The notes beneath the pieces are model-generated. The model was not told where the DNA came from and searched no databases. It saw only the letters and a list, made by a program, of their open reading frames with translations. Both the position numbers and the translations under genes were made by a program. Source: a virus. From it: 41,290 bases of DNA. The stretch lies in the UHGV virus genome UHGV-0387525; one strand, given 5' to 3'. This document shows, in pieces, positions 1 through 41,290 of the stretch (within the stretch, counting starts at the first letter, position 1; every line of letters begins with the position of its first letter).

Positions 1-88
1 CTTCTACTCATGATATCTGGCAACAACCCTCTGTAGACCGCCATCCGGCGGTCTACAGAGGGTTGTTGCCAGATATCATGAGTAGAAG
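1..88. repeat. perfect inverted repeat, 42-bp arms (1-42 and 47-88) around centre ATCC
   Basis: 1-42 is the exact reverse complement of 47-88; 1-53 is also the exact reverse complement of 41225-41277, so the left arm may be an assembly foldback. Confidence 0.6.
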
Positions 89-306
89 AAGTATGCCAGT
101 TCCGCTTTTGAGCGCAGCCATTGTCTTGTTTTACAGGCTTTAAAAAGCCCATTCATCAATACCTTACCTGGCATTTTGCGCTTACCTGTTAAGTGAGTCT
201 GGATATAGTGACTCGTCGTTCCGGCTTCCTGTGCGAAGGCTTCACGCTCATCCGGAGTAAGTGCAAGCCAGTGCTTTTTGAAATCGAAATGTCCGTTATC
301 GCTCAT
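76..306 (-). CDS. small HTH DNA-binding protein, Cro/CII-like by position (first gene of minus-strand early arm)
   Basis: 76 aa; helix-turn-helix-like segment AQEAGTTSHYIQTHLTGKR; divergent from repressor candidate across an operator-bearing intergenic region. Confidence 0.5.
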   Translation of the reverse strand: MSDNGHFDFKKHWLALTPDEREAFAQEAGTTSHYIQTHLTGKRKMPGKVLMNGLFKACKTRQWLRSKAELAYFFYS

Positions 307-6957: not shown

Positions 6958-6993
6958 ATAAAAACAAAAACCCTCTGTAAAAACAGAGGGTTA
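6958..6993 (-). terminator. rho-independent terminator ending the late/lysis operon
   Basis: 10-bp stem aaccctctgt/acagagggtt, loop aaaaa; on minus strand followed by TTTTTGTTTTT. Confidence 0.7.
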
Positions 6994-7163: not shown

Positions 7164-7646
7164 CTATCTGGTCAAAGTGTCGTACTGTTTTTCGCAGACT
7201 CTTCCGGCTTCGGCTGCCCGGTCAGCATACTCTGCCAGTTGTCTGTTTCTCTCGAGAGATTTGCTGAGCACGTCGGCAAGCAAAACTCCGGTGTCTGCGG
7301 CTGACGACCCAGCGCCGACAATGGCGTTATACTGCCTGAGCTGCTCACGGATGGCAAAGAGTTGTTGCTGCAACCGGCCAGCGCTAGCGGCAGCATCAAG
7401 AGCATCATTGCGCGCCTGGTCGATCCTCTGCTGAGCTTCACGTTCATTGGTCACTTTCTCCTGTTCGTAGTACTGACGAACTTTGTCTTCTTCGGCTTTG
7501 CGGTCTTCTTCCGCCTGAGCATACCCGGCATCGTACTGGCGACTGCCGTGTATATTCCAGGCAACAACTCCTGATATGACCAGAACAGCAAGCACTGCCA
7601 CGATAATCAACTGTTTCCAGTATGCTTTTACGAATGCCCAGATCAT
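7164..7646 (-). CDS. Rz-like i-spanin
   Basis: N-terminal TM helix, coiled-coil-rich body, C-terminal Cys; resembles lambda Rz; last gene of lysis cassette. Confidence 0.7.
7172..7408 (-). CDS. Rz1-like o-spanin lipoprotein embedded in Rz (+1 frame)
   Basis: lipobox LALAGC after short hydrophobic leader, Pro-containing mature region; exact start uncertain. Confidence 0.45.
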   Translation of the reverse strand: MMLLMLPLALAGCSNNSLPSVSSSGSITPLSALGRQPQTPEFCLPTCSANLSRETDNWQSMLTGQPKPEESAKNSTTL

Positions 7647-8272
7647 ACCGCCAGCACCTTACTGGCAGTGATGTACCGCGCTCGCCGGTCGTCGATGCCG
7701 TTCCGGCCACCATTGATAATCAGAGTTACACGTGCAATATCGCCGGTATACTTCATGCATCCTTTGCTGGCGAAGAACCACGCCGCGCTACGAGCCGCAT
7801 ATTCGTCCTGCGCCAGCAGTTCAGGGCTCTCCAGCAGGTCAACCTTCAGACCGTTTCCGCAATCACGATAGTTATTCAAACCGGTAATCTGGATAAGTCC
7901 GCGCCCTCGGTAATTCCAGCCATCACCAGGGGCATTGTTCCCCATGCGTTTGCTGTATACCAGATTTGCGATCGCGCGCTGGCGCTCAAGTGGCAATGGT
8001 GGTTCACCAGCACGGCGCCCCAGTGCATTAGCCTGCCCCTGAGTGAGACGCCCAGCCCGAACGAAGTTAGCCAGTCCGCTGACACTGTAGTTGAAATTCT
8101 CCTGCAACCTGGTGAAGCCCCCAGACTCATGCCCGACTTGAGCAATAAACATTGCCTGATCTTCTGCTTTGCTGATACCAAACTCTTTCATCGCAGAAGT
8201 TATATGCGAGAACCAGCGTGCGGCCAGTGCCTCGCTGATACCAGCAGCTCGCTGGAATTGTTTAATCTCCAT
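7643..8272 (-). CDS. endolysin, glycoside hydrolase family 19 (chitinase-like)
   Basis: GHESGGF and [13 protein letters not shown] motifs; start moved to MEIKQ (ATG 8272) with GAGGT RBS. Confidence 0.8.
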
Positions 8273-8561
8273 GTTTAGACCTCGATACTTTAAAAATTTG
8301 AACGACGTTACCGCGCGTTTTAATAACCGCAGCCAGCATGACAGCGTTGATAATGACCTCAGATAAATCCACAGCCATTGGCGTACGTAACCAGATTGCA
8401 TAGGCGACTCGAACAGGAATACTGGCCGCAGCAACAATCAGGAAATAAGCAAGCCATCCTCCCCACCTTCGATGTTGAGAGCCGTTACGCCGGAATGTGA
8501 CAACGCGAATTGCTATGCCAGTGCAAATAACTGCATTAGTGATAAGCAAAAAAAAACTCAT
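8262..8561 (-). CDS. small membrane protein in lysis cassette (holin/antiholin candidate)
   Basis: 99 aa with 2-3 hydrophobic helices; start overlaps upstream stop (ATGA). Confidence 0.4.
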
Positions 8562-8962
8562 GCGTTACCATCGTCTTTTCTCCCCGGAATTAACTCGCGT
8601 GGATTATCGGAACGGTGATAGAGCCATATACCAATACGCACAGCGACAATTGCTGACACGAATGCGCCTGCAGAGAAAACAATCCCTTTTTCAAAAGAGT
8701 CCTGCGTGATGGTAGGGATCAGGCTGGCTATGCCGATAAGAATTGATGCTGCTGGTTTGTAAAAGAGAAGGCCGCAAAGAAAGCTGAGCATCGACAGGAG
8801 CACCCGGCGACGGATGGGGTACTCTACTGCAGAGGTAACAAAAATTACCGCCCCAGCCAAAGCCCCTAAAGCAACCTCCGGAGGGACACCTGCAATAACT
8901 GCAGCAAGAGAACCAAAACTAAGCAACTGATTTAATTGCTCACTTGTTACTTGAGCAGACAT
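8558..8962 (-). CDS. putative holin
   Basis: 134 aa, several TM helices, charged C-terminus; first gene of lysis cassette. Confidence 0.45.
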   Translation of the reverse strand: MSAQVTSEQLNQLLSFGSLAAVIAGVPPEVALGALAGAVIFVTSAVEYPIRRRVLLSMLSFLCGLLFYKPAASILIGIASLIPTITQDSFEKGIVFSAGAFVSAIVAVRIGIWLYHRSDNPRELIPGRKDDGNA

Positions 8963-9242
8963 ACTTTCTCCTGTTTACTATCTATAAGCCAGTCAATTAT
9001 TGATGACTAAACCCGCATAGTAAACCATATATGAATCATTATTGTTCCATATCATATATCTCAATAAAAGTACTAATGATTTTACAGAACGAGCCAGCAG
9101 AGTGGGGGCAGTTGTACAGGAACCATAGACTTAATTTTGTATTTAATAATGCTATGGTGTAATAAACCTGAACATGTATTTAAAATACGTACTGATTCAT
9201 GATAGAATTCAAAGATAACTTTTCACCAACTCCGTTTTTGAT

Positions 9243-9270
9243 GCCCGCAATATTTTGCGGGCTTTTTTTT
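9243..9270 (+). terminator. plus-strand intrinsic terminator abutting the tailspike stop
   Basis: stem gcccgcaa/ttgcgggc, loop tatt, then eight T on plus strand. Confidence 0.55.
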
Positions 9271-12200
9271 AACGTTCTTCCAGAGACTGAACCCGCTCTT
9301 TTATCTTATCCATTTCTCTGCGCTGCCATGCTGCCTCGATATAGAATAAGAGATCAGGTCTGACCCCCCATCTAGATCCTGCTGGCGTTATTTCAACGCG
9401 CTCAATGATGTCTTCTATTACCATCACTGGATTATCATCCTCATCAACAATGATGCTCCCGTCATTATCAGTCAGCGGCATTTCCCTTTGGCCAGTAATG
9501 ACGTCATCATATACTGCGGGATAATCGTCATAGCAAAGAAAGGCATAGCGGCATGTTGTGCTTTCTTCTTCCATGAGTCCGTGAGAAATAAGAACATCAC
9601 GAAGTTGCTGCGCGATTACACCATGATGTATCCTCGCCCCTTCTTCCCCCTTTATAGCGACAGCGTTCAGCCATTTATAAGCGATATACCTGACGTCACC
9701 CCAGGCATCCAGCAATGCTTCGTCAGGAGAGACCGGCTCTGTCTTTAATGTTCCGTCACTGGTAACCACAGGATTGGAGCCAAGATAAACTGTCGAGAAC
9801 CTGTTTCCCGGACCACCAAGAGCATTTACATTATCAAGATAAGGTTTAACATCTCCGTTCTCAAAAAGATGTTCGAGTGCGTTATATACCGCGCGACGTG
9901 GAGTACTGCTTCCGGAACCATGCAACGTTATCATTGCACCATCTGCTGAAGACGTTGTTTCACCGCCGCTAACGATTAATCTCTGAGCGGTAACATCATC
10001 AGACGGTACTTTCTTCGCAATAATGGCGTAATTACCCTCAAGTTTGACTTCCGCGCGAACTTGTCCTGATGTACCTGCATGGACAGTCAGTGACTGGACG
10101 GCAACATCATCTGTGAAATCAACGGGTACAGGAACCGTCCTCACGCCTGACGTCGACATAAAAGTAGGAAGCGTTCTGTTAGGAGTGGCTCCGTAGACAA
10201 AATCCCTTGAAACAAATTCTTCCTGTTTAATTTTCACCCTGAAACAATACAAATCAGCCGGGTGACCATCGTGAACATAAGGATATTTTCTGTTGTTATC
10301 CCCTATGCTCCATGGGTTTAGAAAGTCTTCCCCACCGAAAATGTAGTACAGCCAGTTGTCTTTGATACAAACTGAACCAACACCAACCGCAGAGTTAACT
10401 ATTCCGCCCTGATAAATCTGATCAGTAACATTAACCCACTCTACATTATCCAGACTCCACTCATTGACGTTAACTCTGGTCATAAATGTTCTTGGATAAT
10501 TTCCTGCATAACGGTTATCAGGTTCTCCTCCTTCCCACTCACCAAATGCGCGCTCACTGCCAAAAATAATCAGCTCATCGCCAACTTTGGCAAAAGGAAG
10601 GTTTGAGTGATGAACATTATTTGGGAAGCGAAGAGAATTCCATGATGTACCTAAATCAGAGCTTCTGTGCAATGAACTACCGGGTTGAGTACTTAATGTC
10701 CCCCTGGTCGTCAGATACAGAATGCCATCATAATATTTTACACATGGCTCAGATGCATTCGCCTCATATTCTACAGGTATGCGTCTGCGAACAAAGCTAC
10801 CAGGAGAACCGAAAGCATCAGAGAAATAGAGTATCCCAAGCTCGCGTGGACCAATATCACCATTATGGTAGCCAACAGCAAAACTGTTATCGCTAATCGT
10901 CGCAAAACTGTGAATCTCAGTAACAGGAGTGCTTCCGTCAACAAAAGAAGGAATAGTTCCAAGACTGGTTTTTCTCCATGGTGACGAGTGAAATGATGTG
11001 CCAAAACTCCAGTATCTACCCTCGTTATTCTGATCCACATCCTGGGTATTTTGCGTCGTAACTGTAAAGGTATTTTTATCAATAACAGTAGTCACCGTCA
11101 TATTCCCGGTAACACCTGTAACACCAGAGTTTGAGAAGTTGACAAAATCACCAGCAAATAATCCGTGATCAGTAATGCGAATATAAGCGACTTGCTGATT
11201 TGCTGCTTTCGTTATACCACCATAAACGCGAAGGCTGCGACTCATTGGGCGATCCCACAACTCTGCAACCTGCAGTTTATTTCCTCTCACGGTCCGCGTC
11301 TCAATTACAGCAAAAAGGCGATTTCTGACAACCCCCATACTCATGCAGTGATAGTTAACTGTGGGATAGTTTTCATGTAAATCTGTAAGCCATTCCGGCG
11401 TTGTCCAGGTCTTCCCGTCATCTCCTGAGCGAACCCATGCAACATGGAGGTTATTCACACCATGGCGGTCTCCAGCCATAAAAGGCGCATAGATGACATT
11501 GTCATATACAAACGTTTTATCCTGCGTCCAGGCGTTGTACCACGGTGTATCTGTAATTTTAAATAACTCTCCCTGGATAAAATCTTCAGAAGCATAAAAA
11601 AGAGGCTGGCCCGGTATTCTCTCAAATAAAAAACGAGCATTTTTAAATCGACTGACATCCGGAAGAGTTGATACTTTAAAAGTAAGCCCTAATCCGTCAA
11701 TTTTATAACCTGGAGATGAGGCTTCAAGGCACGCGCTTATTGCAGTGGAATCGTCATTTATACCATCACCAACAGCTCCAAAATCTTTGGGGCTAATAGC
11801 ATCACGCATTTTATCCTGGAACGTTCGGTACACAGCCCCAGAACCATACTGAATAAACCAACCAAAACCACCAACAACTCCGGCGATTGCAGCATCGACA
11901 TAATTACGCATTGAGCGATTATTTACAGCGTCCTGCTCAAATGATGGATCTGCAAGGTTAGAAATTTTGTTTTGCTTTGCATCGTAATATTTTGCAAGCA
12001 AAGATGGTTTCATCAATGCACGTCTGAACCACCCAAAACATTGCTGGATCAGCATCGTCAGGTAGTCAAAGGCATCTTCATGCACTTCGGGGAAAAATTT
12101 TCCCTGATTGCGAAGGTCTGTGTCCTGCACTACATCAAGCACACGATCTATCGTAATTCGCCATCCAGTAGCAAGCGGAGACGGAAGAACCACAGAACCG

Positions 12201-12388
12201 CCACTATAAGTGCCCGCCCCAGTTACCGTATAACCGGTATCCAGGACCAATTCTGTTACGTTCCCGTTCAGGTCAGACACCTGAACAACCAGGTCTGATT
12301 TTCTGAAAATTCGAAAAGTATACGGAAACGATGTCGTAACGCCGTTACCGGTGTATTCGTTGTGGTCAACTTCGGTTGAGACCGTCAT
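9269..12388 (-). CDS. tail fibre/tailspike with predicted glycan depolymerase body and C-terminal S74-type intramolecular chaperone
   Basis: 1039 aa; N-terminus shows T7 gp17-like adaptor pattern (YTGNGVTTSFPYTF...VVQV); DFGAVGDGINDDSTAI pectate-lyase-like motif; Asp-box-like SGDDGKTW and SSDLGTSW; C-terminal ...ARIHHGVIAQQL chaperone-like segment. Confidence 0.75.
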   Translation of the reverse strand: MTVSTEVDHNEYTGNGVTTSFPYTFRIFRKSDLVVQVSDLNGNVTELVLDTGYTVTGAGTYSGGSVVLPSPLATGWRITIDRVLDVVQDTDLRNQGKFFPEVHEDAFDYLTMLIQQCFGWFRRALMKPSLLAKYYDAKQNKISNLADPSFEQDAVNNRSMRNYVDAAIAGVVGGFGWFIQYGSGAVYRTFQDKMRDAISPKDFGAVGDGINDDSTAISACLEASSPGYKIDGLGLTFKVSTLPDVSRFKNARFLFERIPGQPLFYASEDFIQGELFKITDTPWYNAWTQDKTFVYDNVIYAPFMAGDRHGVNNLHVAWVRSGDDGKTWTTPEWLTDLHENYPTVNYHCMSMGVVRNRLFAVIETRTVRGNKLQVAELWDRPMSRSLRVYGGITKAANQQVAYIRITDHGLFAGDFVNFSNSGVTGVTGNMTVTTVIDKNTFTVTTQNTQDVDQNNEGRYWSFGTSFHSSPWRKTSLGTIPSFVDGSTPVTEIHSFATISDNSFAVGYHNGDIGPRELGILYFSDAFGSPGSFVRRRIPVEYEANASEPCVKYYDGILYLTTRGTLSTQPGSSLHRSSDLGTSWNSLRFPNNVHHSNLPFAKVGDELIIFGSERAFGEWEGGEPDNRYAGNYPRTFMTRVNVNEWSLDNVEWVNVTDQIYQGGIVNSAVGVGSVCIKDNWLYYIFGGEDFLNPWSIGDNNRKYPYVHDGHPADLYCFRVKIKQEEFVSRDFVYGATPNRTLPTFMSTSGVRTVPVPVDFTDDVAVQSLTVHAGTSGQVRAEVKLEGNYAIIAKKVPSDDVTAQRLIVSGGETTSSADGAMITLHGSGSSTPRRAVYNALEHLFENGDVKPYLDNVNALGGPGNRFSTVYLGSNPVVTSDGTLKTEPVSPDEALLDAWGDVRYIAYKWLNAVAIKGEEGARIHHGVIAQQLRDVLISHGLMEEESTTCRYAFLCYDDYPAVYDDVITGQREMPLTDNDGSIIVDEDDNPVMVIEDIIERVEITPAGSRWGVRPDLLFYIEAAWQRREMDKIKERVQSLEER

Positions 12389-12492
12389 GTTAAATCTCCA
12401 GATAGTCGCAGCACCCGTTGCGCCGCATATCTGGTTATTCTATTACCTAAAAAACCATATATGGATAAAAAGACTATAAATACCAATAGATA

Positions 12493-12507
12493 TTACCTTT
12501 CGGGTAA
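12493..12507. promoter_or_regulatory. operator-like palindrome TTACC-N5-GGTAA
   Basis: ttacctttcgggtaa upstream of gene 12584..12841. Confidence 0.6.
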
Positions 12508-12847: not shown

Positions 12848-12865
12848 AGGCCGCAAGAGCGGCCT
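12848..12865. terminator. bidirectional hairpin between convergent genes
   Basis: stem aggccgc/gcggcct, loop aaga; T-rich on both sides. Confidence 0.45.
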
Positions 12866-13592
12866 ATCGTTTCGCTTTGTGCTCGTCCCAGCACGTTTTG
12901 CACCATGCCATTAAGCCGTCCGCATTTTGATTATTAGGGTAAAAGCTGGTCCGTTTTCTGCGGACATTACAAATTGGGCACCACTTCATATGGCGTGTAT
13001 TCTTTGGGCCATCGAGACACCTTGCACACCACTTAGTCAATCCATCTGGATTTTTTGACGATTTCCGGAATTTGTCATATGGAAGGTTTATTCTGCATCG
13101 CAAACACTGCTTGCGGCCACTTGAAACTCTGTTAGCTGATTCTTCTTTTGGCGGCGATACAGAAGGTATTCTTGCTGGCTCTGATACTGCCTGAGGTGCT
13201 TTATTAGATGACTGAGACGATATGTCATCACCAGGGAATCTTCCATGATATGCCGGACGCGTTGACACTCCAGGTGGAAGCTCAGCTGTAAACGGCTTTG
13301 GCTGAATCAGTTGCCTCTCTTTTGCTAACTCCTGCTGTTTATAATATGTCTGGATTACCGCACTATCATAAGCAGGAGGTGCGGAAATATTAGGCGCATT
13401 ACCTCCAGTTTTTTGAAACTGAGTAGAGGTGTGTTCTATCACCTGTGTACGATTAATCGTTATCTCCCCATCTTCGGTCTTTATCGTTTTGTTATGATTA
13501 ACGACCGTACGATCAGAGATCTTAGTCTTGTTCTGGTTGATAACGTAAATAATCACCGCAACCACACCAACAACTATCCAGAAAACTTCCAT
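12864..13592 (-). CDS. membrane-anchored protein with tandem Cys-rich (zinc-ribbon-like) repeats
   Basis: 242 aa; N-terminal TM helix; two copies of C..C..N.DGL..WC..C pattern near C-terminus. Confidence 0.45.
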   Translation of the reverse strand: MEVFWIVVGVVAVIIYVINQNKTKISDRTVVNHNKTIKTEDGEITINRTQVIEHTSTQFQKTGGNAPNISAPPAYDSAVIQTYYKQQELAKERQLIQPKPFTAELPPGVSTRPAYHGRFPGDDISSQSSNKAPQAVSEPARIPSVSPPKEESANRVSSGRKQCLRCRINLPYDKFRKSSKNPDGLTKWCARCLDGPKNTRHMKWCPICNVRRKRTSFYPNNQNADGLMAWCKTCWDEHKAKR

Positions 13593-13720: not shown

Positions 13721-13989
13721 ATTTACATCGCACTCCTCTTGTGCCATAGTAATCGGGCACTGGCAAAATCCAGTGCCGGGATTGGCGTCCCGGATTACTA
13801 AAAGGCGCATTCACCGCGCAAGCGGTTTTTTTATGCGTATAGCACGGCCACATTCGTATTATGGTGGGCTGTGTGGGGGCACCGAAAGGTGCGCCGGGTC
13901 CTTTTAGCCGGTTACGCCAACCCTGCACAGTTCACCACCAACCGATTGGCGTCGGTAGTGGTGATTAACCAGACTAAAAGGTAACCACT
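13721..13989 (+). ncRNA. candidate structured leader / small RNA upstream of ant
   Basis: no credible ORF; hairpins at 13757-13778 and 13776-13793; terminator-like hairpin accgc-gcaa-gcggt + T7 at 13813-13832; decoy SD-like actaaaagg 13797-13805; anti-SD ccttttag 13900-13907. Confidence 0.35.
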
Positions 13990-14685
13990 ATGACAGCTAC
14001 AAAAAGCACGTCCATTTTTTCTTTCGAATCCCAAGCCGATATACGGGTAATCGTCATTAATGGTGAGCCATGGTTTATCGCTTCAGATGTTTGTCGGGCT
14101 ATAGGCATAGCAAACCATCGAGATGCTGTTCGAAAACTTGATGATGATGAGAAGGGCGTCGCTTCAACCGACACCCCTGGCGGTGAGCAAGAATCGATCA
14201 TCATCTCCGAGTCAGGCCTCTACACACTGATCCTCCGCTGCCGCGACGCAGTGACACCAGGCACTATCCCCTACCGCTTTCGCAAATGGGTTACAGGTGA
14301 GGTTCTTCCTCAGATCCGCCGCACCGGAAGTTACATTAAAAACTCGCTCCCGCAGGAAGAACGCATAAAGATGGTTGCCGACCAGGTAGCCAACGCCACA
14401 GCATCAGCAGTAATGCAGGCGATGAAGATAGAGAACAAAACCTACAGCGCCCCACTGAAGCCCGGCTACCGCAGCCTGATTCATTCTCCGTCTGGTGTTC
14501 TCGGCCTGACGGAGAACTCACTGCTGATGAATTTGCTGAACCAGTTGCAGGAAGACGGGCACGATGTATCGGGCGCGGCGGCGGAGCTGACAACCATGTT
14601 TTGCTACATCGTTGGTGTGAGTAAATGCCTGCGTGATATCCAGACTCACGCGGAGTACATCAACGACAAAGCAGGATTCTTCTGA
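13990..14685 (+). CDS. ant: antirepressor with N-terminal Bro-N domain
   Basis: 231 aa; Bro-N-like N-terminus (IRVIVINGEPWFIASDVCRAIGI...ESGLYTLILRCR); C-terminal segment paralogous to 12584..12841. Confidence 0.75.
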   Translation: MTATKSTSIFSFESQADIRVIVINGEPWFIASDVCRAIGIANHRDAVRKLDDDEKGVASTDTPGGEQESIIISESGLYTLILRCRDAVTPGTIPYRFRKWVTGEVLPQIRRTGSYIKNSLPQEERIKMVADQVANATASAVMQAMKIENKTYSAPLKPGYRSLIHSPSGVLGLTENSLLMNLLNQLQEDGHDVSGAAAELTTMFCYIVGVSKCLRDIQTHAEYINDKAGFF

Positions 14686-30207: not shown

Positions 30208-30500
30208 TCCTGTTCACTGGCCTCTTTGGCCATCTTCAAATACTGTTCAGGGCAATGCGCCATAACGCGCTGAAACAGTTCCAGCGCCAGATTGCGTTGC
30301 CCCTCATTAAATGCCATTGCCATAGCGTCCATCGGTGAGATAGCGGAAAACACACGGCCTTTCTCCAGCACCGACCAGACAACGCGACGCCCCTGTTCAC
30401 TGCTCATGACAAAGCGAATGTCATCAATTTCACGCTGTGCCATGTCACGTTGCTTACGGGCGTTTTCTTCTTTCAGTTGATCGTCTTCGTAATCTGTCAT
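30204..30500 (-). CDS. hypothetical head-assembly protein
   Basis: 98 aa, charged; coupled between portal and scaffold. Confidence 0.35.
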   Translation of the reverse strand: MTDYEDDQLKEENARKQRDMAQREIDDIRFVMSSEQGRRVVWSVLEKGRVFSAISPMDAMAMAFNEGQRNLALELFQRVMAHCPEQYLKMAKEASEQE

Positions 30501-32176
30501 TGTGATTGCCCACCCTGACCACTAACTGCATTCGCCATAGCTGACAAAACACTCGGATCCGAAGTTTTAGCTTCGCTTAGCGTCTTGGCACCCTGTGCCG
30601 CCGCCATCCCCATCGCCATCATTTGTTGCTGCTGTTGTTGCTGTGCCCGTTGCTGGCGAGCCTGCTCAACCTGTTCCTGCGGAACAATGACGGTTGGAGA
30701 CACTCCGGACATATCAGCGAATGCATCGATCGCCTGATCAACGTTGAGTTTGTCGAGAGCTTCTGGTTTCGCTTGCGCAAGTTGACCAATGAAGTTAACC
30801 GTGGACGCCAGACTGGACAGGCCGATAGACTTCTGCGCCTGAGCCATGACGGAAATGTATTCGACCTTCAGGGGCATGCCTTCCATCGCGTCAGGCGGTG
30901 GCGGCAGCATGTTTTTACGCACCATCATCGAGAAAGAGCGATCAATGAGAGGATTAAGACATTCGTCGTTCAGGCGCTCCAGAACCGGCCCCAACATCAG
31001 AAGTTTTTCTTCTTTCATTTCGATCACCGCTTCCACAGGCATCGAGCGGGTATTGATGTTCTGCAACATCATGAACAGATCGACAAAGTAGGCGCTGTTA
31101 ATGATTTGACGAGTGTCCTGAATGTCTGCCACCAAATCTGCTGTACTGGGGTTAACCAGATAAGCAGGCCTGAAACCATCCTGACCAGTAATCTGATCGA
31201 TATACGTGATGTCGCCAGGAAGAAGGGAGGCACGCTGATTCTTGAGGGAATTCGGAGCAACCATCGGCGGATTGGTGGCTTTATCAATCAACTGCGACTT
31301 GCGCTTCTGGAGAAGCTGCAATGCCTTAACAGGTCCAAGCGCCAGCATACCCGGGCATGATGATCCATAAACATCTTCGCCGTTAACTTCCCAGCGCGGG
31401 GCCATAATTGGAAACTCATCGAATCCGGACTCACGCAACAACTTGTCGTTATCGCCACCAACCTCGTAATAAACCGATTTGAATGGCTTGTTCTTGCTAT
31501 CCAGCTTCGATGTATCGCGGTCAATGTTCGGGTAAACCGAATGCATCACTTCAATCCACTTCTCGTAGGTTCCGCTTTCCCACATGCTTTTTACGGATTC
31601 GCTGACGTTATTTAGCCCGAACTCCTGAACAAGCTGACGAACAGTCATAGAGAACTTGCGAAAACAGGTGTCCACACTGCCACGAGGTGAGTTAGCCAGG
31701 TAGTAACTGCCTATCGGGAATGGCATTGTGCGAATGATGTCCTCGTCATCCTCCAGCACTGCCATTGCACCAGTGCTGTATGTGCCGAGGCTTCCGTATA
31801 ACTGCGGCAGCGACTGATAGAGATTCGACTTATTGAACATATCGTTCATGCGGTTCTGCACCGCCTCAAGCCACAACTTAACAGGGCCATAATCCATCAT
31901 TTCAGGATCTGGCGTAGCCAGGCGAAACCACGGACGCGCGGGGCTTGTGATGCCTGACATCATGCCGCTGGCGAGAGTGCGCGCCGCCATAGTCCCGGTC
32001 GAATCAATAATGCGTGTATTGCGTCGATCGTTACGGTTAACCTCAGAAGCCAGAAAGCGGGAACCACGCGGGTTGATGTAATCACTCAACTCGCGCCAGT
32101 GCGGCTCGAACGACTGACGCTCGCTTTCAAGTTGTGCGAACTGTTTGTTCAATCGCTCTTTAGTTGTTTCCGCCAT
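30497..32176 (-). CDS. portal protein (T7 gp8-like)
   Basis: 559 aa; Gln/Ala/Met-rich C-terminal tail resembles T7 gp8; follows terminase. Confidence 0.8.
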   Translation of the reverse strand: MAETTKERLNKQFAQLESERQSFEPHWRELSDYINPRGSRFLASEVNRNDRRNTRIIDSTGTMAARTLASGMMSGITSPARPWFRLATPDPEMMDYGPVKLWLEAVQNRMNDMFNKSNLYQSLPQLYGSLGTYSTGAMAVLEDDEDIIRTMPFPIGSYYLANSPRGSVDTCFRKFSMTVRQLVQEFGLNNVSESVKSMWESGTYEKWIEVMHSVYPNIDRDTSKLDSKNKPFKSVYYEVGGDNDKLLRESGFDEFPIMAPRWEVNGEDVYGSSCPGMLALGPVKALQLLQKRKSQLIDKATNPPMVAPNSLKNQRASLLPGDITYIDQITGQDGFRPAYLVNPSTADLVADIQDTRQIINSAYFVDLFMMLQNINTRSMPVEAVIEMKEEKLLMLGPVLERLNDECLNPLIDRSFSMMVRKNMLPPPPDAMEGMPLKVEYISVMAQAQKSIGLSSLASTVNFIGQLAQAKPEALDKLNVDQAIDAFADMSGVSPTVIVPQEQVEQARQQRAQQQQQQQMMAMGMAAAQGAKTLSEAKTSDPSVLSAMANAVSGQGGQSQ

Positions 32177-32397: not shown

Positions 32398-32487
32398 ATC
32401 AATGACTCCGTACGCAATTAAATTATTACCAATTTAACCACATATGATTTATTTATCGTAGGTGGTTGACATTTAACGCACAAATTA

Positions 32488-32502
32488 TTACCTTTCAGGT
32501 AA
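32488..32502. promoter_or_regulatory. operator-like palindrome with upstream TTGACA
   Basis: ttacctttcaggtaa; TTGACA at 32466-32471. Confidence 0.6.
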
Positions 32503-32824: not shown

Positions 32825-32901
32825 GTGGCATTAGCTCAGTTGGACAGAGCAACCGCCTTCTAAGCGGTTGGTCGCAGGTTCGAATCCTGCATGCCACGCC
32901 A
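32825..32901 (+). tRNA. tRNA-Arg (anticodon UCU)
   Basis: manual cloverleaf: acceptor GTGGCAT/ATGCCAC, D-arm GCTC/GAGC, anticodon stem ACCGC/GCGGT with loop CTTCTAA, T-arm GCAGG-TTCGAAT-CCTGC, discriminator G, encoded CCA. Confidence 0.9.
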
Positions 32902-33062
32902 GAATCACGCCTAAGGACCGTGATGCCAGAAGTTCCAGGTGCTTGGCGGTGATAGTTTCCCTTGAAGGACTATCACCGCCCTTTTTACAGCAGGACGCCA
33001 TTGCGATGACTTCATGCTGTAAACCCGTACAGCCACGGAAGGCATAACTCATTGCTTCCAGT

Positions 33063-33088
33063 TCGCCCGGTTCGCCGGGCATTTTTTA
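33063..33088 (+). terminator. rho-independent terminator downstream of tRNA
   Basis: stem gcccgg/ccgggc, loop ttcg, then six T. Confidence 0.7.
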
Positions 33089-33098
33089 AGGTGAGATC

Positions 33099-33518
33099 AT
33101 GAAGACAATTGATATGTTGGCTAAGTATCTAAATGAATGGCCATTAAAATATTCTCGTATCGTTCAGGCTGAAGACTGCATTTTTTATGGCGTTTTTGCT
33201 GGTAATGAAATGCATTACGAAGTAATTCAGAGTGAGGGACTGGCCGGGTTAACTCTTAGCGAAGACCATGGTACTAGCGTTACGTTCCATGACTGGATAA
33301 CAGCACAACGTTCTGAAATGGAAAAAGGCGATGTTTTTGATATTTCTCGCGCTGTTTACGCTAAAGCAAAAAGTGATAATGATTACATGAGCGAACACTT
33401 ATACAACATGAAGTTACAATGCCTGCATGCGGCGCTTATTCAGAATGGGCACTTCGATAAAACAAGTGCCATCAATATTGCGGAAGCCATCAACGCTGGA
33501 TTTAATGCCATTAAGTAA
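33099..33518 (+). CDS. hypothetical accessory protein
   Basis: 139 aa; AAGGTGA RBS before ATG 33099; opposite strand to flanking structural genes. Confidence 0.5.
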   Translation: MKTIDMLAKYLNEWPLKYSRIVQAEDCIFYGVFAGNEMHYEVIQSEGLAGLTLSEDHGTSVTFHDWITAQRSEMEKGDVFDISRAVYAKAKSDNDYMSEHLYNMKLQCLHAALIQNGHFDKTSAINIAEAINAGFNAIK

Positions 33519-33522
33519 CACC

Positions 33523-33534
33523 GTGACATGTCAC
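33523..33534. repeat. 12-bp palindrome GTGACATGTCAC (copy 1)
   Basis: identical to 35974-35985; intergenic. Confidence 0.6.
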
Positions 33535-33538
33535 AAAC

Positions 33539-33566
33539 AGCCAGCCGATGAGCTGGCTTTGTTTTA
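33539..33566 (+). terminator. rho-independent terminator
   Basis: stem agccagc/gctggct, loop cgatga, then TTGTTTT. Confidence 0.55.
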
Positions 33567-33608: not shown

Positions 33609-35084
33609 TTAAGCATATGGATCGTAATCTGTGATGGCCTTGCCTTGCTGGTTCTGCTGCCCGGGAATTCGCAGACGCTTCGACACAGGGAACGCAAACG
33701 TCAGCAGTAGCGCATCGCCTTTACCAGGAGAACGCCCAAGCCGCTCCTTGATATCTTCCTTCGGTTCGATAACGATTTTACCGTCCACTCGAACTTTGTA
33801 CTCTGCCGCAGACAGGTCGTCCGCTGTTTCCTGGTCATCCAGCATGCCGCCCAGCCTCAGCCATGTCTTGCATGAGTTGAACATCTCCCCACGCTTGTTG
33901 AGCATCTGCGGGTCAGTAGACGCGCCACCGAACGGAACAAGTTGCCATGTACGACCCCAGCCATCACCGATTGACTTCAGACCAGTTCCGTAACCGAAGT
34001 CGATGAACACTGCGTCAGCCTGGTACTGGTCTTCAAAGTCAGCGATACGCTTCGCCATAATCAGATCGTCAGTGGTCTTGTTGCCAGTCCACAGCACCTT
34101 ACTGTGCAGCCCCTGCCGCAGGTATATCACAGCGTCATCAACGCCGGAGTATGCCGGGTCAACGCCGATTATCACCGGAGCATGTGCAACCTGCGCAGCG
34201 GTTACCACCCGTTTCATTGCCTCGTCAGTAAGGCCGGTAGGGATAAACTGCAATTCAGATGCATCCGGGAATATGCCGCGCACACGGATTTTAACGAAGT
34301 CGCTGTCTTCCCCGTAGTCATCAACCCATTTCTGCAACTGCTGTTTGTTAGTGCCTTCCACCGTCCGGCTGTCAATCTGCGCAGTTTTCCAGCGGTGTTT
34401 ATATTTGCGGAAACATTCGCGAAAACGCCCGGTGTTACGTGTAGGGTTTCCGAACGCCACCCAGATAATCTCAGTGTCTTCGTCCGTAAGCGCACCCTCA
34501 GCAACTTCCCACACCAGATCCGCAATGTTCGACGCTTCATCGAATACCACGATGATGCGTTTGCGCTCGTTGTGTAGTCCGGCGAATGCCTCAGTGTTGT
34601 GCTCAGACCAGGGTATTGCGTCAGCCCGCCACCGCTTGTCGTGCCCAGGGTCATTGCTGTACATCGCGGTAGCGGTACAGGTAAACCAGTCTTTCGTGAT
34701 AGCAAGGTTCGACCACTTGATAATTTCCGGCCAGGTCTTCGTTCGTAGCTGGTTGTCGGTGTTGGCGGTCACCACGACCTTACAATCCTCGCAAGTGGAC
34801 ATGCCCCAGTTGATCAGCATTGAGATGAATGCGGATTTACCAATACCGTGACCAGAAGCGCGTGCCAACATAAGCGGCTGATAGCGCGTCTCTGGATTCT
34901 GCAGGTGATCACGTATCTCTCGGAACGCATCAGCCTGCCACTGACGTGGGCCGGTAGCATGTGCCAGTTCAGTCCCCTCTTCCCCCCACGGGAACGCATA
35001 GAGGGCATAGCCAAGCGGATCGTGAGTGAACCCTGCAATATCCTCGATTAACTGCTCTTCAGGAGATAACGCTGTATCTGTCAC
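33609..35084 (-). CDS. terminase large subunit
   Basis: 491 aa; Walker A-like ARASGHGIGKS; acidic nuclease-type C-terminal half. Confidence 0.85.
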   Translation of the reverse strand: MTDTALSPEEQLIEDIAGFTHDPLGYALYAFPWGEEGTELAHATGPRQWQADAFREIRDHLQNPETRYQPLMLARASGHGIGKSAFISMLINWGMSTCEDCKVVVTANTDNQLRTKTWPEIIKWSNLAITKDWFTCTATAMYSNDPGHDKRWRADAIPWSEHNTEAFAGLHNERKRIIVVFDEASNIADLVWEVAEGALTDEDTEIIWVAFGNPTRNTGRFRECFRKYKHRWKTAQIDSRTVEGTNKQQLQKWVDDYGEDSDFVKIRVRGIFPDASELQFIPTGLTDEAMKRVVTAAQVAHAPVIIGVDPAYSGVDDAVIYLRQGLHSKVLWTGNKTTDDLIMAKRIADFEDQYQADAVFIDFGYGTGLKSIGDGWGRTWQLVPFGGASTDPQMLNKRGEMFNSCKTWLRLGGMLDDQETADDLSAAEYKVRVDGKIVIEPKEDIKERLGRSPGKGDALLLTFAFPVSKRLRIPGQQNQQGKAITDYDPYA

Positions 35085-41220: not shown

Positions 41221-41243
41221 AAAAGACCGCCGGATGGCGGTCT
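41221..41243 (-). terminator. terminator after cro-like gene (across the circular junction)
   Basis: 8-bp stem agaccgcc/ggcggtct with 4-nt loop; on minus strand followed by TTTTC. Confidence 0.5.
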
Positions 41244-41290
41244 ACAGAGGGTTGTTGCCAGATATCATGAGTAGAAGAAGTATGCCAGTT
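41224..41290. repeat. terminal direct repeat of 35-101, identical except the 4-nt hairpin loop is inverted (GGAT vs ATCC)
   Basis: direct comparison of the two window ends; 41236-41290 equals 47-101 exactly. Confidence 0.85.

What the first reader, a model, noticed from the sequence alone, without database searches (positions are those of the whole stretch)
8963..9270. AT-rich spacer and plus-strand terminator between tailspike and lysis cassette
A strong plus-strand terminator (9243-9270) ends exactly at the tailspike stop although both flanking genes are on the minus strand; the minus-strand context lacks a U-run. The ~300-bp AT-rich spacer probably holds the lysis promoter. The terminator may stop antisense transcription entering the tailspike gene or end a small plus-strand transcript.
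Basis: seen in the sequence. Interest (0 to 1): 0.4.

Follow-up and report, generated by a model that had tools for sequence, protein, structure and literature searches.

The report
Orphan plus-strand terminator, possible prophage sRNA
A real one-directional transcription stop signal sits, with no gene to stop, in the slot where related phages keep their host-modifying genes; it most likely ends a tiny non-coding RNA or is a leftover of a lost gene, which is modestly interesting but needs RNA data.

Summary
An 8-bp GC-rich hairpin (9243-9262) followed by T8 (9263-9270) is a textbook intrinsic terminator on the plus strand only. Its T-run overlaps the tailspike stop codon by 2 nt, and on the minus strand AUCAAAAACGG follows the hairpin.

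The window is an epsilon15/phiV10-type temperate phage (about 99% identical to vB_EcoP_ZX5) carrying a K1 endosialidase tailspike. The spacer lies in the family's variable lysogenic-conversion slot. In epsilon15, phiV10 and Tyrion this slot holds O-antigen-modifying genes transcribed on this same anti-late strand.

In the K1 lineage the cassette is replaced by an ORF-less, 33% GC block (9037-9297). I found no homologue of this block outside the lineage, which comprises 72 E. coli genomes, 3 phage records and 29 viral or metagenome contigs.

An extended -10 promoter-like site (9180-9208) lies 35 nt upstream of the hairpin. It would give a roughly 56-nt RNA laid out like an Hfq-type sRNA. This is my best guess (0.4), and a relic terminator is the main rival.

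The holin-proximal 75 nt is the family's conserved lysis leader. However, the relatives' lysis promoter hexamers and repressor operator are missing here, so the lysis genes are probably read through from the tailspike promoter. There are no expression data, and the copies are too similar to test for selection.

The parts
9243..9262 (+). Terminator hairpin: 8-bp stem GCCCGCAA/TTGCGGGC with 4-nt loop TATT
   Evidence: Most other copies read ACCCGCAA-AATA-TTGCGGGC (7-bp stem, loop inverted). No stem-breaking change was seen in about 38 aligned copies.
9263..9270 (+). T8 tract of the terminator; overlaps the tailspike stop codon (complement of 9269-9271)
   Evidence: The tract is T7 in 2 copies.
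9180..9208 (+). Sigma-70 promoter-like site with extended -10: TTAAAA - 17 nt - TGaTAGAAT
   Evidence: Invariant in all copies. A TG-extended match occurs in 3.9% of shuffles of the 206-nt block, and in 2% within 100 nt of its 3' end.
9215..9270 (+). Candidate ~56-nt non-coding RNA: 28 unpaired nt ending in GUUUUUGAU, then the hairpin and U8
   Evidence: Inferred. No Rfam family matches. No ORF lies in this stretch apart from the implausible 9199..9363 one, which starts inside the -10 region and runs through the terminator. Site 9227 is polymorphic, C or A, 15:15.
9037..9297 (.). Lineage-specific AT-rich block, including the last ~10 codons of the endosialidase chaperone domain
   Evidence: Family homology ends near 9036. 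99% identity to CUS-3 starts at 9298. No similar DNA occurs in any other context. The C-terminal peptide differs from CUS-3.
8973..9025 (-). Conserved inverted repeat (GTTTACTAT ... ATAGTAAAC) just upstream of the holin Shine-Dalgarno sequence. The equivalent element is annotated as an RNase III processing site in epsilon15.
   Evidence: 3 pairs with compensatory changes across 8 phages.
9021..9034 (.). Palindromic family motif TAAACCATATATGA (consensus AACCATATATGGTT)
   Evidence: The same motif lies upstream of the tailspike (12451-12468) and of the portal block (32434-32451). Alignment.
9010..9038 (-). Position of the relatives' lysis promoter (phiV10 TTAACC-17-TATAAT). Here it reads TGATTC-17-CGGGTT, i.e. 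degenerate. Sites 9010-9014 are the most polymorphic patch of the spacer.
8558..8962 (-). First lysis gene (Phage_holin_8, putative holin); AGGAG Shine-Dalgarno sequence at the complement of 8967-8971
9269..12388 (-). K1 endosialidase tailspike, 1039 aa
12451..12507 (-). Tailspike promoter module: CCATATATGG motif (12455-12464) plus TTACC-N5-GGTAA operator (12493-12507). Likely source of minus-strand transcription crossing the spacer.
   Evidence: The equivalent 17-mer is annotated as a repressor site in epsilon15.
6969..6992 (-). Minus-strand terminator after Rz (also the attP hairpin); first minus-strand terminator downstream of the tailspike

Best explanation
The hairpin plus T8 is a genuine intrinsic terminator that works on the plus strand only. 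It sits in the slot between the tailspike and lysis genes, where epsilon15-family phages keep their lysogenic-conversion cassette. In epsilon15, phiV10 and Tyrion that cassette is transcribed on this same strand, opposite to the late genes. In the K1-specific lineage the cassette has been replaced by a ~260-bp AT-rich block with no ORF.

The most likely reading is that this block is a very small plus-strand transcription unit, an 'ORF-less moron'. RNA polymerase would start at the extended -10 promoter (9180-9208), at about 9215, and the terminator would release a ~56-nt non-coding RNA. That RNA has 28 unpaired nucleotides at its 5' end, a U-rich stretch, the hairpin and a U8 tail, which is the layout of an Hfq-binding sRNA. 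It is also perfectly antisense to any tailspike-to-holin read-through mRNA.

The hairpin has no U-tract on the minus strand, so late transcription from the tailspike promoter can pass it and reach the lysis genes, whose own family-type promoter is degenerate here.

Shown: the terminator, its polarity, its invariance in all copies, the slot homology, the absence of an ORF or of homologues, and the promoter-like motif. Inferred: that the promoter fires, that the RNA accumulates, and anything about its targets.
For: - The terminator is far beyond chance and is one of only two of its quality in the window. It is plus-strand only.
- Relatives have a plus-strand transcription unit in this slot: phiV10 oac, typing phage 9, Tyrion acetylase, and epsilon15 gp21/gp22.
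- The block is 33% GC against 47.8% for the window, which fits acquired moron DNA.
- The only plus-strand promoter-like site in the spacer has an extended -10 and lies 35 nt before the hairpin. Such a site arises in 2-4% of shuffles and is invariant in all copies.
- The predicted RNA has an unstructured 5' part and the sequence GUUUUUGAU-hairpin-U8. From my own knowledge, this matches the Hfq-binding module described by Otaka 2011 and Ishikawa 2012.
- No ORF with a ribosome-binding site lies upstream of the terminator, and no coding relic was found.
- Host read-through is already stopped at attR by the yfgI terminator, so transcripts that reach this terminator most plausibly start nearby.
- There is no minus-strand terminator between the tailspike and Rz.
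- Prophage sRNAs have precedents, including svsR (PMC12803456) and DicF (PMC5069750), both listed.
Against: - There are no expression data of any kind.
- The promoter is a consensus match found post hoc in AT-rich DNA, where a 9/12 match without the TG extension occurs in 49% of shuffles.
- The putative seed carries a 15:15 C/A polymorphism at 9227. The candidate RNA region is no more conserved than the rest of the spacer: 5 variable sites in 56 nt against about 12 in 252 nt.
- All copies are 97-100% identical, so neither covariation nor purifying selection can be shown.
- No Rfam family matches.
- No convincing trans target at a ribosome-binding site exists within the phage.
- The ZX5 study found no phenotype of lysogeny (PMC9782041).
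Confidence: 0.4

Rival explanations
1. Relic or hitch-hiker. The terminator is what remains of a plus-strand conversion gene cassette that was lost, or it arrived with the foreign DNA that also supplied the last codons of the endosialidase gene. It has no present function. Any short RNA made is incidental.
For: The slot is highly variable among relatives, and several carry plus-strand genes that end at the tailspike stop. The block boundary (9297/9298) lies inside the tailspike ORF, so the block is one recombination product. The adjacent family lysis promoter and operator look broken by the same event. There is no sign of extra conservation. Lysogeny gave no phenotype in ZX5.
Against: No trace of a coding relic and no donor sequence anywhere. 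The terminator stem and T-run are intact in all ~100 copies, and one variant even perfects the stem, though the time elapsed is short. None of the three relatives with a plus-strand gene in this slot (epsilon15, Tyrion, phiV10) shows a plus-strand terminator of this kind. Their hairpins carry the U-tract on the tailspike strand, so this is not simply the family's ancestral signal.
Confidence: 0.3
2. Insulator. The terminator stops spurious plus-strand (antisense) transcription that arises in the AT-rich spacer or inside the lysis cassette before it runs antisense into the 3.1-kb tailspike gene.
For: The terminator abuts the tailspike stop codon exactly. AT-rich DNA is rich in promoter-like sites: 5 of the 13 in 7500-11000 lie in the spacer. 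One plus-strand site lies inside the endolysin gene at 7725-7752.
Against: Host read-through, the obvious source, is already blocked by the yfgI/attR terminator. epsilon15, Tyrion and phiV10 tolerate a whole convergent operon with no plus-strand terminator. This rival overlaps the best explanation, since the only good plus-strand promoter is 35 nt away.
Confidence: 0.15
3. Minus-strand RNA role. On the late transcript the hairpin sits directly after the tailspike stop codon. It acts as a 3' exonuclease barrier after RNase III cleavage at the conserved leader hairpin (8973-9025), stabilising tailspike mRNA.
For: A stable hairpin forms on the minus strand too. epsilon15 annotates the conserved inverted repeat upstream of the lysis genes as an RNase III site. 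There is no minus-strand terminator between the tailspike and Rz.
Against: This does not explain the perfect T8 and the upstream T-rich run on the plus strand, which are the signature of plus-strand termination. epsilon15, phiV10 and Tyrion use ordinary tailspike-strand terminator-like hairpins at this position instead.
Confidence: 0.1
4. Small protein gene. The 43-codon plus-strand ORF 9031..9162 is a moron gene, and the terminator is its terminator.
For: The ORF is intact in ZX5 and the Phi05 phages and lies 80 nt upstream of the terminator.
Against: There is no Shine-Dalgarno sequence. Its ATG lies within the conserved palindromic family motif. It has no homologues outside the lineage. It is not annotated by GenBank or PGAP in any copy examined. 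One of the few substitutions in it is non-synonymous: G/A at 9105, ORF nucleotide 75.
Confidence: 0.03

Closest known systems
Lysogenic-conversion cassettes of epsilon15-type phages (epsilon15 gp21/gp22, phiV10 oac, Tyrion O-antigen acetylase)
   Same: Same genomic slot between the tailspike and the first lysis gene, same anti-late strand, AT-rich, convergent with the tailspike and ending at its stop codon.
   Different: There is no ORF here and no sequence similarity. The repressor operator next to the relatives' cassette is absent. The relatives' junction hairpins carry the U-tract on the tailspike strand, whereas here it is on the opposite strand.
Prophage-encoded Hfq-type sRNAs (e.g. DicF, IsrK, Esr41, svsR)
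   Same: A short non-coding unit in accessory prophage DNA. The predicted layout is an unpaired 5' region, a U-rich stretch, a GC hairpin and a long U tail. isrK itself is present elsewhere in this window.
   Different: No sequence or covariance-model match to any of them (best Esr41 hit 19 bits against a 102-bit cutoff). Expression, Hfq binding and targets are unknown.
Cis-antisense RNAs of temperate phages (lambda oop, P22 sar)
   Same: The candidate would be a short RNA transcribed against a longer phage mRNA and ended by its own intrinsic terminator. It would be perfectly complementary to the tailspike-lysis intercistronic RNA.
   Different: It does not overlap a ribosome-binding site and reaches only the stop codon of an ORF. 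No RNase III-dependent effect has been shown. The resemblance is recalled from my own knowledge and was not tested.
Morons (promoter-gene-terminator insertions in phage late regions)
   Same: Inserted between genes that are adjacent or differently separated in relatives. Composition is atypical. It carries its own terminator and a candidate promoter.
   Different: It has no protein-coding gene.

Membership tests
Intrinsic (Rho-independent) terminator, plus strand | GC-rich stem of 5-12 bp with a short loop | tested here: met
   8-bp stem with 6 GC pairs, 4-nt loop, -15.6 kcal/mol, z = -4.2.
Intrinsic (Rho-independent) terminator, plus strand | U-tract of at least 6 immediately 3' of the stem | tested here: met
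   T8 at 9263-9270 directly after the stem.
Intrinsic (Rho-independent) terminator, plus strand | Actual termination of transcription | not testable with these tools
   Needs Term-seq or an in vitro termination assay.
Bidirectional terminator / terminator of the tailspike gene (minus strand) | U-tract after the hairpin on the minus strand | tested here: not met
   The minus strand reads hairpin-AUCAAAAACGGAG. The scan reports no minus-strand terminator between 9269 and 6992.
Hfq-dependent sRNA | Own promoter at a short distance from the terminator | tested here: inconclusive
   TTAAAA-17-TGaTAGAAT at 9180-9208. The chance rate is 2-4%. Activity has not been measured.
Hfq-dependent sRNA | Terminator hairpin preceded by a U-rich stretch and followed by a long poly-U tail | tested here: met
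   GUUUUUGAU-hairpin-U8. The criterion comes from my own knowledge of the literature.
Hfq-dependent sRNA | Conserved seed and identifiable mRNA targets | tested here: inconclusive
   Site 9227 is C or A, 15:15, in the unpaired region. No ribosome-binding-site target exists within the phage. The host genome could not be scanned.
Hfq-dependent sRNA | Detected transcript and Hfq binding | not testable with these tools
   No data found.
Any Rfam family | Score at or above the family's gathering threshold | tested here: not met
   Nothing at gathering thresholds in 8850-9400. The best sub-threshold hits of 13-24 bits match only the terminator.
Moron | Insertion between genes that are otherwise linked in relatives, with atypical composition | tested here: met
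   Variable slot; 33% against 47.8% GC.
Moron | Contains a protein-coding gene | tested here: not met
   Only a 43-codon ORF with no ribosome-binding site, homologues or annotation.
Family-type lysis promoter of Uetakevirus (as in phiV10) | The -35 and -10 hexamers flanking the CCATATATGG motif, and the TTACC-N5-GGTAA operator about 30 nt upstream | tested here: not met
   phiV10 has TTAACC-17-TATAAT. The window has TGATTC-17-CGGGTT at the aligned positions and no operator. The motif itself and the leader hairpin are retained.
Type I toxin-antitoxin | Small hydrophobic ORF with an overlapping antisense RNA | tested here: not met
   The only hydrophobic ORF (9199..9363) starts inside the -10 region and runs through the terminator.

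The most novel reading that the evidence does not exclude
A previously undescribed ~56-nt Hfq-type sRNA is carried only by the K1-capsule-specific epsilon15-like prophages of extraintestinal pathogenic E. coli (IHE3034, CE10, APEC O18, IAI39 and others). It occupies the place of the serotype-conversion genes. It acts either in trans on host mRNAs, for example surface or receptor functions as a form of RNA-based lysogenic conversion, or in cis to uncouple tailspike and lysis expression.
Probability: 0.25. Interest if true: 0.55.

Novelty: new member of a known kind. Interest (0 to 1): 0.3.

Why it matters
If the RNA exists, it would be a lineage-specific regulatory RNA of prophages found in about 1.3% of complete E. 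coli genomes (72 of 5426). Among the hits listed, K1 neonatal-meningitis, avian-pathogenic and other clinical isolates are prominent. It would sit exactly where related phages carry surface-antigen conversion genes. That would make it an example of a conversion cassette replaced by an RNA and a candidate modifier of host or phage gene expression.

If it is only a relic, the locus still shows how one recombination event rewired the transcription map of a phage. The tailspike-strand terminator and the dedicated lysis promoter were lost, so lysis genes became dependent on read-through. A one-directional terminator permits that read-through.

Tried and rejected
- **Rfam:** searched at gathering thresholds over the whole window and at E <= 10 over 8850-9400. 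No family matched at the site; the sub-threshold hits match only the terminator.
- **Donor or other context for the block:**
  - megablast and blastn against phages and E. coli genomes;
  - exact and degenerate pattern scans of viral, genome and metagenome collections;
  - tblastn with the tailspike C-terminal 30 aa.
  Only the same lineage turned up, plus one chance Bacteriovorax hit.
- **Coding relic:** tblastn of the seven slot proteins of relatives against the spacer gave only noise. The best hit was 20 bits, 13/37 identities, and was not shared by the homologous PAS61 protein.
- **43-aa ORF:** no homologues. I ran no further search on it.
- **Covariation or selection:** about 38 copies were aligned but are 97-100% identical, so the test is not informative.
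- **Trans targets within the phage:** RNAduplex found nothing at a ribosome-binding site. Host-wide prediction was not possible with the data held.
- **Insulator against host read-through:** rejected, because the yfgI terminator/attR hairpin already stands at the prophage end.
- **Literature:** the ZX5 paper has no transcript mapping of this region, and no paper links sRNA, Hfq, prophage and endosialidase.

Full report
**1.

The plus strand reads ...CCGTTTTTGAT-GCCCGCAA-TATT-TTGCGGGC-TTTTTTTT-AACG.
- The stem is 8 bp with 6 GC pairs, the loop is 4 nt, and the T-run of 8 occupies 9263-9270.
- The hairpin folds at -15.6 kcal/mol, z = -4.2 against dinucleotide shuffles.
- The tailspike ORF is 9269..12388 on the minus strand. 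Its TAA is therefore the complement of 9269-9271 and shares two bases with the T-run.
- On the minus strand the same hairpin is preceded by A8 and followed by AUCAAAAACGGAG, so it is not a minus-strand or bidirectional terminator.
- I applied a strict definition: perfect 8-bp stem, at least 5 GC pairs, and at least 7 T in 8. Only two sites in the 41-kb window qualify, this one and the minus-strand terminator after Rz at 6969-6992. None appeared in 200 shuffles.
- The spacer (8963-9268) is 33% GC against 47.8% for the window.

**2. What the window is**

The window is an epsilon15/phiV10-type temperate podophage (genus Uetakevirus), about 99% identical to Escherichia phage vB_EcoP_ZX5. Its tailspike is a K1 endosialidase, 99% identical to the CUS-3 tailspike over window 9298-11690.

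The minus strand downstream of the spacer carries:
- two holin-family genes (8558..8962, Phage_holin_8; 8262..8561, Phage_holin_3_7);
- the endolysin and Rz genes;
- a terminator at 6969-6992;
- the integrase gene.

The spacer occurs in 72 of 5426 complete E. coli genomes. Among those listed are K1 and other extraintestinal or avian pathogenic isolates such as IHE3034, CE10, APEC O18 and IAI39. It also occurs in 3 phage records, 21 IMG/VR contigs and 8 metagenome contigs. It always lies between the endosialidase gene and the holin gene. No other context was found at any sensitivity available.

**3. The slot**

In relatives the same interval is a variable accessory slot.
- epsilon15 has the serotype-conversion genes gp21 and gp22.
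- phiV10 and O157 typing phage 9 have oac.
- Tyrion has an O-antigen acetylase.

In all four, the genes are on the strand opposite to the tailspike, which is the plus strand in the window's orientation. TL-2011b and PAS61 carry acetyltransferases on the tailspike strand. EC.W1-9 and phiv142-3 carry small ORFs.

Plus-strand transcription ending at the tailspike stop codon is therefore normal for this family. What differs in the K1 lineage is that there is no gene. The only ORF is 43 codons long. It has no Shine-Dalgarno sequence, no homologue and no annotation, and its ATG is part of a conserved DNA motif. Translated comparison with the seven slot proteins of relatives gave only noise.

**4. 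Two parts of the spacer**

*(a) 8963-9036 is conserved across the genus.*
- It holds an inverted repeat (8973-8981 / 9017-9025) with compensatory changes among eight phages. The epsilon15 RefSeq record annotates the equivalent element as an RNase III processing site.
- It also holds the palindromic motif AACCATATATGG.
- The same motif is paired about 30 nt away with a TTACC-N5-GGTAA palindrome. That palindrome has 11 perfect copies in the window, against about 12 expected matches at up to 2 mismatches and essentially none perfect. epsilon15 annotates it as a repressor site.
- This motif-operator module heads the tailspike gene (12451-12507) and the portal block (32434-32502) in the window. It also heads the lysis cassette of phiV10, Tyrion and epsilon15.
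- In phiV10 the motif lies inside a good minus-strand promoter, TTAACC-17-TATAAT. At the aligned positions the window reads TGATTC-17-CGGGTT and has no operator.
- The former -10 position (9010-9015) is the most polymorphic patch of the spacer.
- The family's dedicated lysis promoter therefore looks degenerate here. A weaker candidate, TTTACT-17-AATAAT (9024..8996), exists.

*(b) 9037-9297 is lineage-specific.*
- It is AT-rich and includes the last ~10 codons of the endosialidase chaperone domain. These codons differ from CUS-3 and have no closer relative elsewhere.
- The block is therefore one recombination product with unknown donor.

**5. Transcription map**

In epsilon15, Tyrion and phiV10 the hairpin at the tailspike end carries its U-tract on the tailspike strand. 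There the tailspike is a separate unit and the lysis genes need their own promoter.

In the window this is reversed. No minus-strand terminator exists between the tailspike and 6992, and the lysis promoter is degenerate. Lysis genes are therefore probably transcribed by read-through from the tailspike promoter (inference). A terminator that works only on the plus strand is compatible with that read-through.

In lysogens the prophage end next to Rz abuts the host genes yfgH and yfgI, which point into the prophage. However, the yfgI terminator hairpin is itself the attachment core and stands at the junction. Host read-through is therefore not what the 9243 terminator stops.

**6. What ends at the terminator**

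The only plus-strand promoter-like site in the spacer is TTAAAA-17-TGaTAGAAT (9180-9208), which has an extended -10 and optimal spacing.
- Such a site arises in 3.9% of shuffles of the 206-nt block, and in 2% within 100 nt of its 3' end.
- It is invariant in all copies.
- Initiation near 9215 would give a ~56-nt RNA: AUAACUUUUCACCAACUCCGUUUUUGAU-hairpin-U8.
- The 5' 28 nt are predicted to be unpaired.
- From my own knowledge of the literature, the U-rich stretch, hairpin and long U tail match the Hfq-binding module of enterobacterial sRNAs.
- The RNA would be perfectly antisense to the tailspike-holin read-through RNA.
- I found no good trans target at a ribosome-binding site within the phage and could not scan a host genome.
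- No Rfam family matches.

**7. Limits**

The roughly 38 copies I aligned are 97-100% identical.
- The candidate RNA region has 5 variable sites in 56 nt, against about 12 in the other 252 nt. This includes a 15:15 C/A polymorphism at 9227 in the putative seed.
- There is therefore no evidence of purifying selection, and covariation cannot be tested.
- The stem is never broken.
- Most copies read ACCCGCAA-AATA-TTGCGGGC. About a quarter, including the window, have the loop as its exact reverse complement (TATT). A few, including the window, also have G at 9243, which perfects the palindrome.
- This pattern fits hairpin-mediated template switching rather than selection.
- No transcript data exist. 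The ZX5 paper measured only holin, endolysin, integrase, repressor and anti-repressor mRNA by qPCR, and reported no phenotype of lysogeny (PMC9782041).

**8. Verdict**

The terminator is real and polar, and its location is explained by the family's conversion-gene slot. Confidence in each reading:

| Reading | Confidence |
|---|---|
| Ends a tiny ORF-less plus-strand unit, a candidate sRNA | 0.4 |
| Functionless relic or hitch-hiker of the recombination that created the block | 0.3 |
| Insulator against local antisense transcription | 0.15 |
| Minus-strand mRNA-stabilising hairpin | 0.1 |
| Terminator of a small protein gene | 0.03 |

Its 'small plus-strand transcript' option is favoured. Its 'lysis promoter' idea applies only to the holin-proximal 75 nt, where the family promoter appears decayed.

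In kind, the feature is a new member of a known class (prophage moron or sRNA-type unit) if it is expressed, and an ordinary relic if it is not.

Noticed in passing
window 1-101 and 41236-41290: The window ends overlap: 47-101 is identical to 41236-41290, as expected for a circular contig. In addition, bases 1-42 are the exact reverse complement of 47-88. This fold-back looks like an assembly artefact rather than biology.
   Followed up: partly
window 391, 1103, 1165, 12493, 13613, 13706, 14758, 32488, 35695, 39194, 39256 (15-mers): There are eleven perfect copies of the palindrome TTACC-N5-GGTAA, all in intergenic regulatory regions, far above chance. The same 17-mer is annotated as the repressor binding site in epsilon15. 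None lies in the spacer under study.
   Followed up: partly
window 12451-12507, 32434-32502, 9021-9034; L003 5485-5556; L048 7700-7770: A shared module heads each minus-strand late block (tailspike, portal block, lysis cassette) in this family. It consists of the operator, about 30 nt, the AACCATATATGG palindrome, and a -10-like element. It is probably a repressor-controlled late promoter design.
   Followed up: partly
window 9243-9262 and the same position in about 38 other copies: The terminator loop is polymorphic as an exact inversion: AATA in most copies and TATT in about a quarter. A few copies also have A-to-G at 9243, which makes the palindrome perfect. This is the signature of template switching at a quasi-palindrome.
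   Followed up: yes
window 13757-13832 and 13857-13942 (+): Rfam isrK (77.9 bits) and C4 antisense RNA (77.7 bits) lie in tandem just upstream of an antirepressor gene (13990-14685). This is a P1/P7-type immI-like RNA-controlled antirepressor module inside an epsilon15-type phage.
   Followed up: no
window 32825-33560 (+): A tRNA-Arg(tct) and a 139-aa plus-strand ORF with no Pfam match are inserted between the 491-aa (33609-35084) and 559-aa (30497-32176) minus-strand late genes, probably terminase and portal. Three plus-strand terminator-like hairpins accompany them. This is a second opposite-strand accessory insertion in the late region.
   Followed up: partly
window 6969-6992; L018 7048-7075: The phage terminator hairpin after Rz (AACCCTCTGT....ACAGAGGGTT) is a copy of the terminator of the host gene yfgI. 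It appears to be the attachment core, so integration regenerates a terminator at the prophage-host junction.
   Followed up: partly
L003 5436-5470 (phiV10) and the equivalent in Tyrion, PAS61 and epsilon15; window 8963-8990: phiV10, Tyrion and PAS61, and probably epsilon15, have a 6-codon mini-ORF (ATG CAC AGT AAA CGG TGG TAA in phiV10) with a strong AAGGGGG Shine-Dalgarno sequence. It ends 2 nt before the start codon of the first lysis gene, which suggests translational coupling. The window lacks the mini-ORF and has a canonical AGGAG instead.
   Followed up: no
window 12864-13592 (-) with terminator 12848-12865: A 242-aa minus-strand gene with its own terminator and only a sub-threshold Stc1 match sits between the tailspike promoter region and the antirepressor module. 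IHE3034 carries a YafO-family toxin pair at this place, so this is another variable slot.
   Followed up: no
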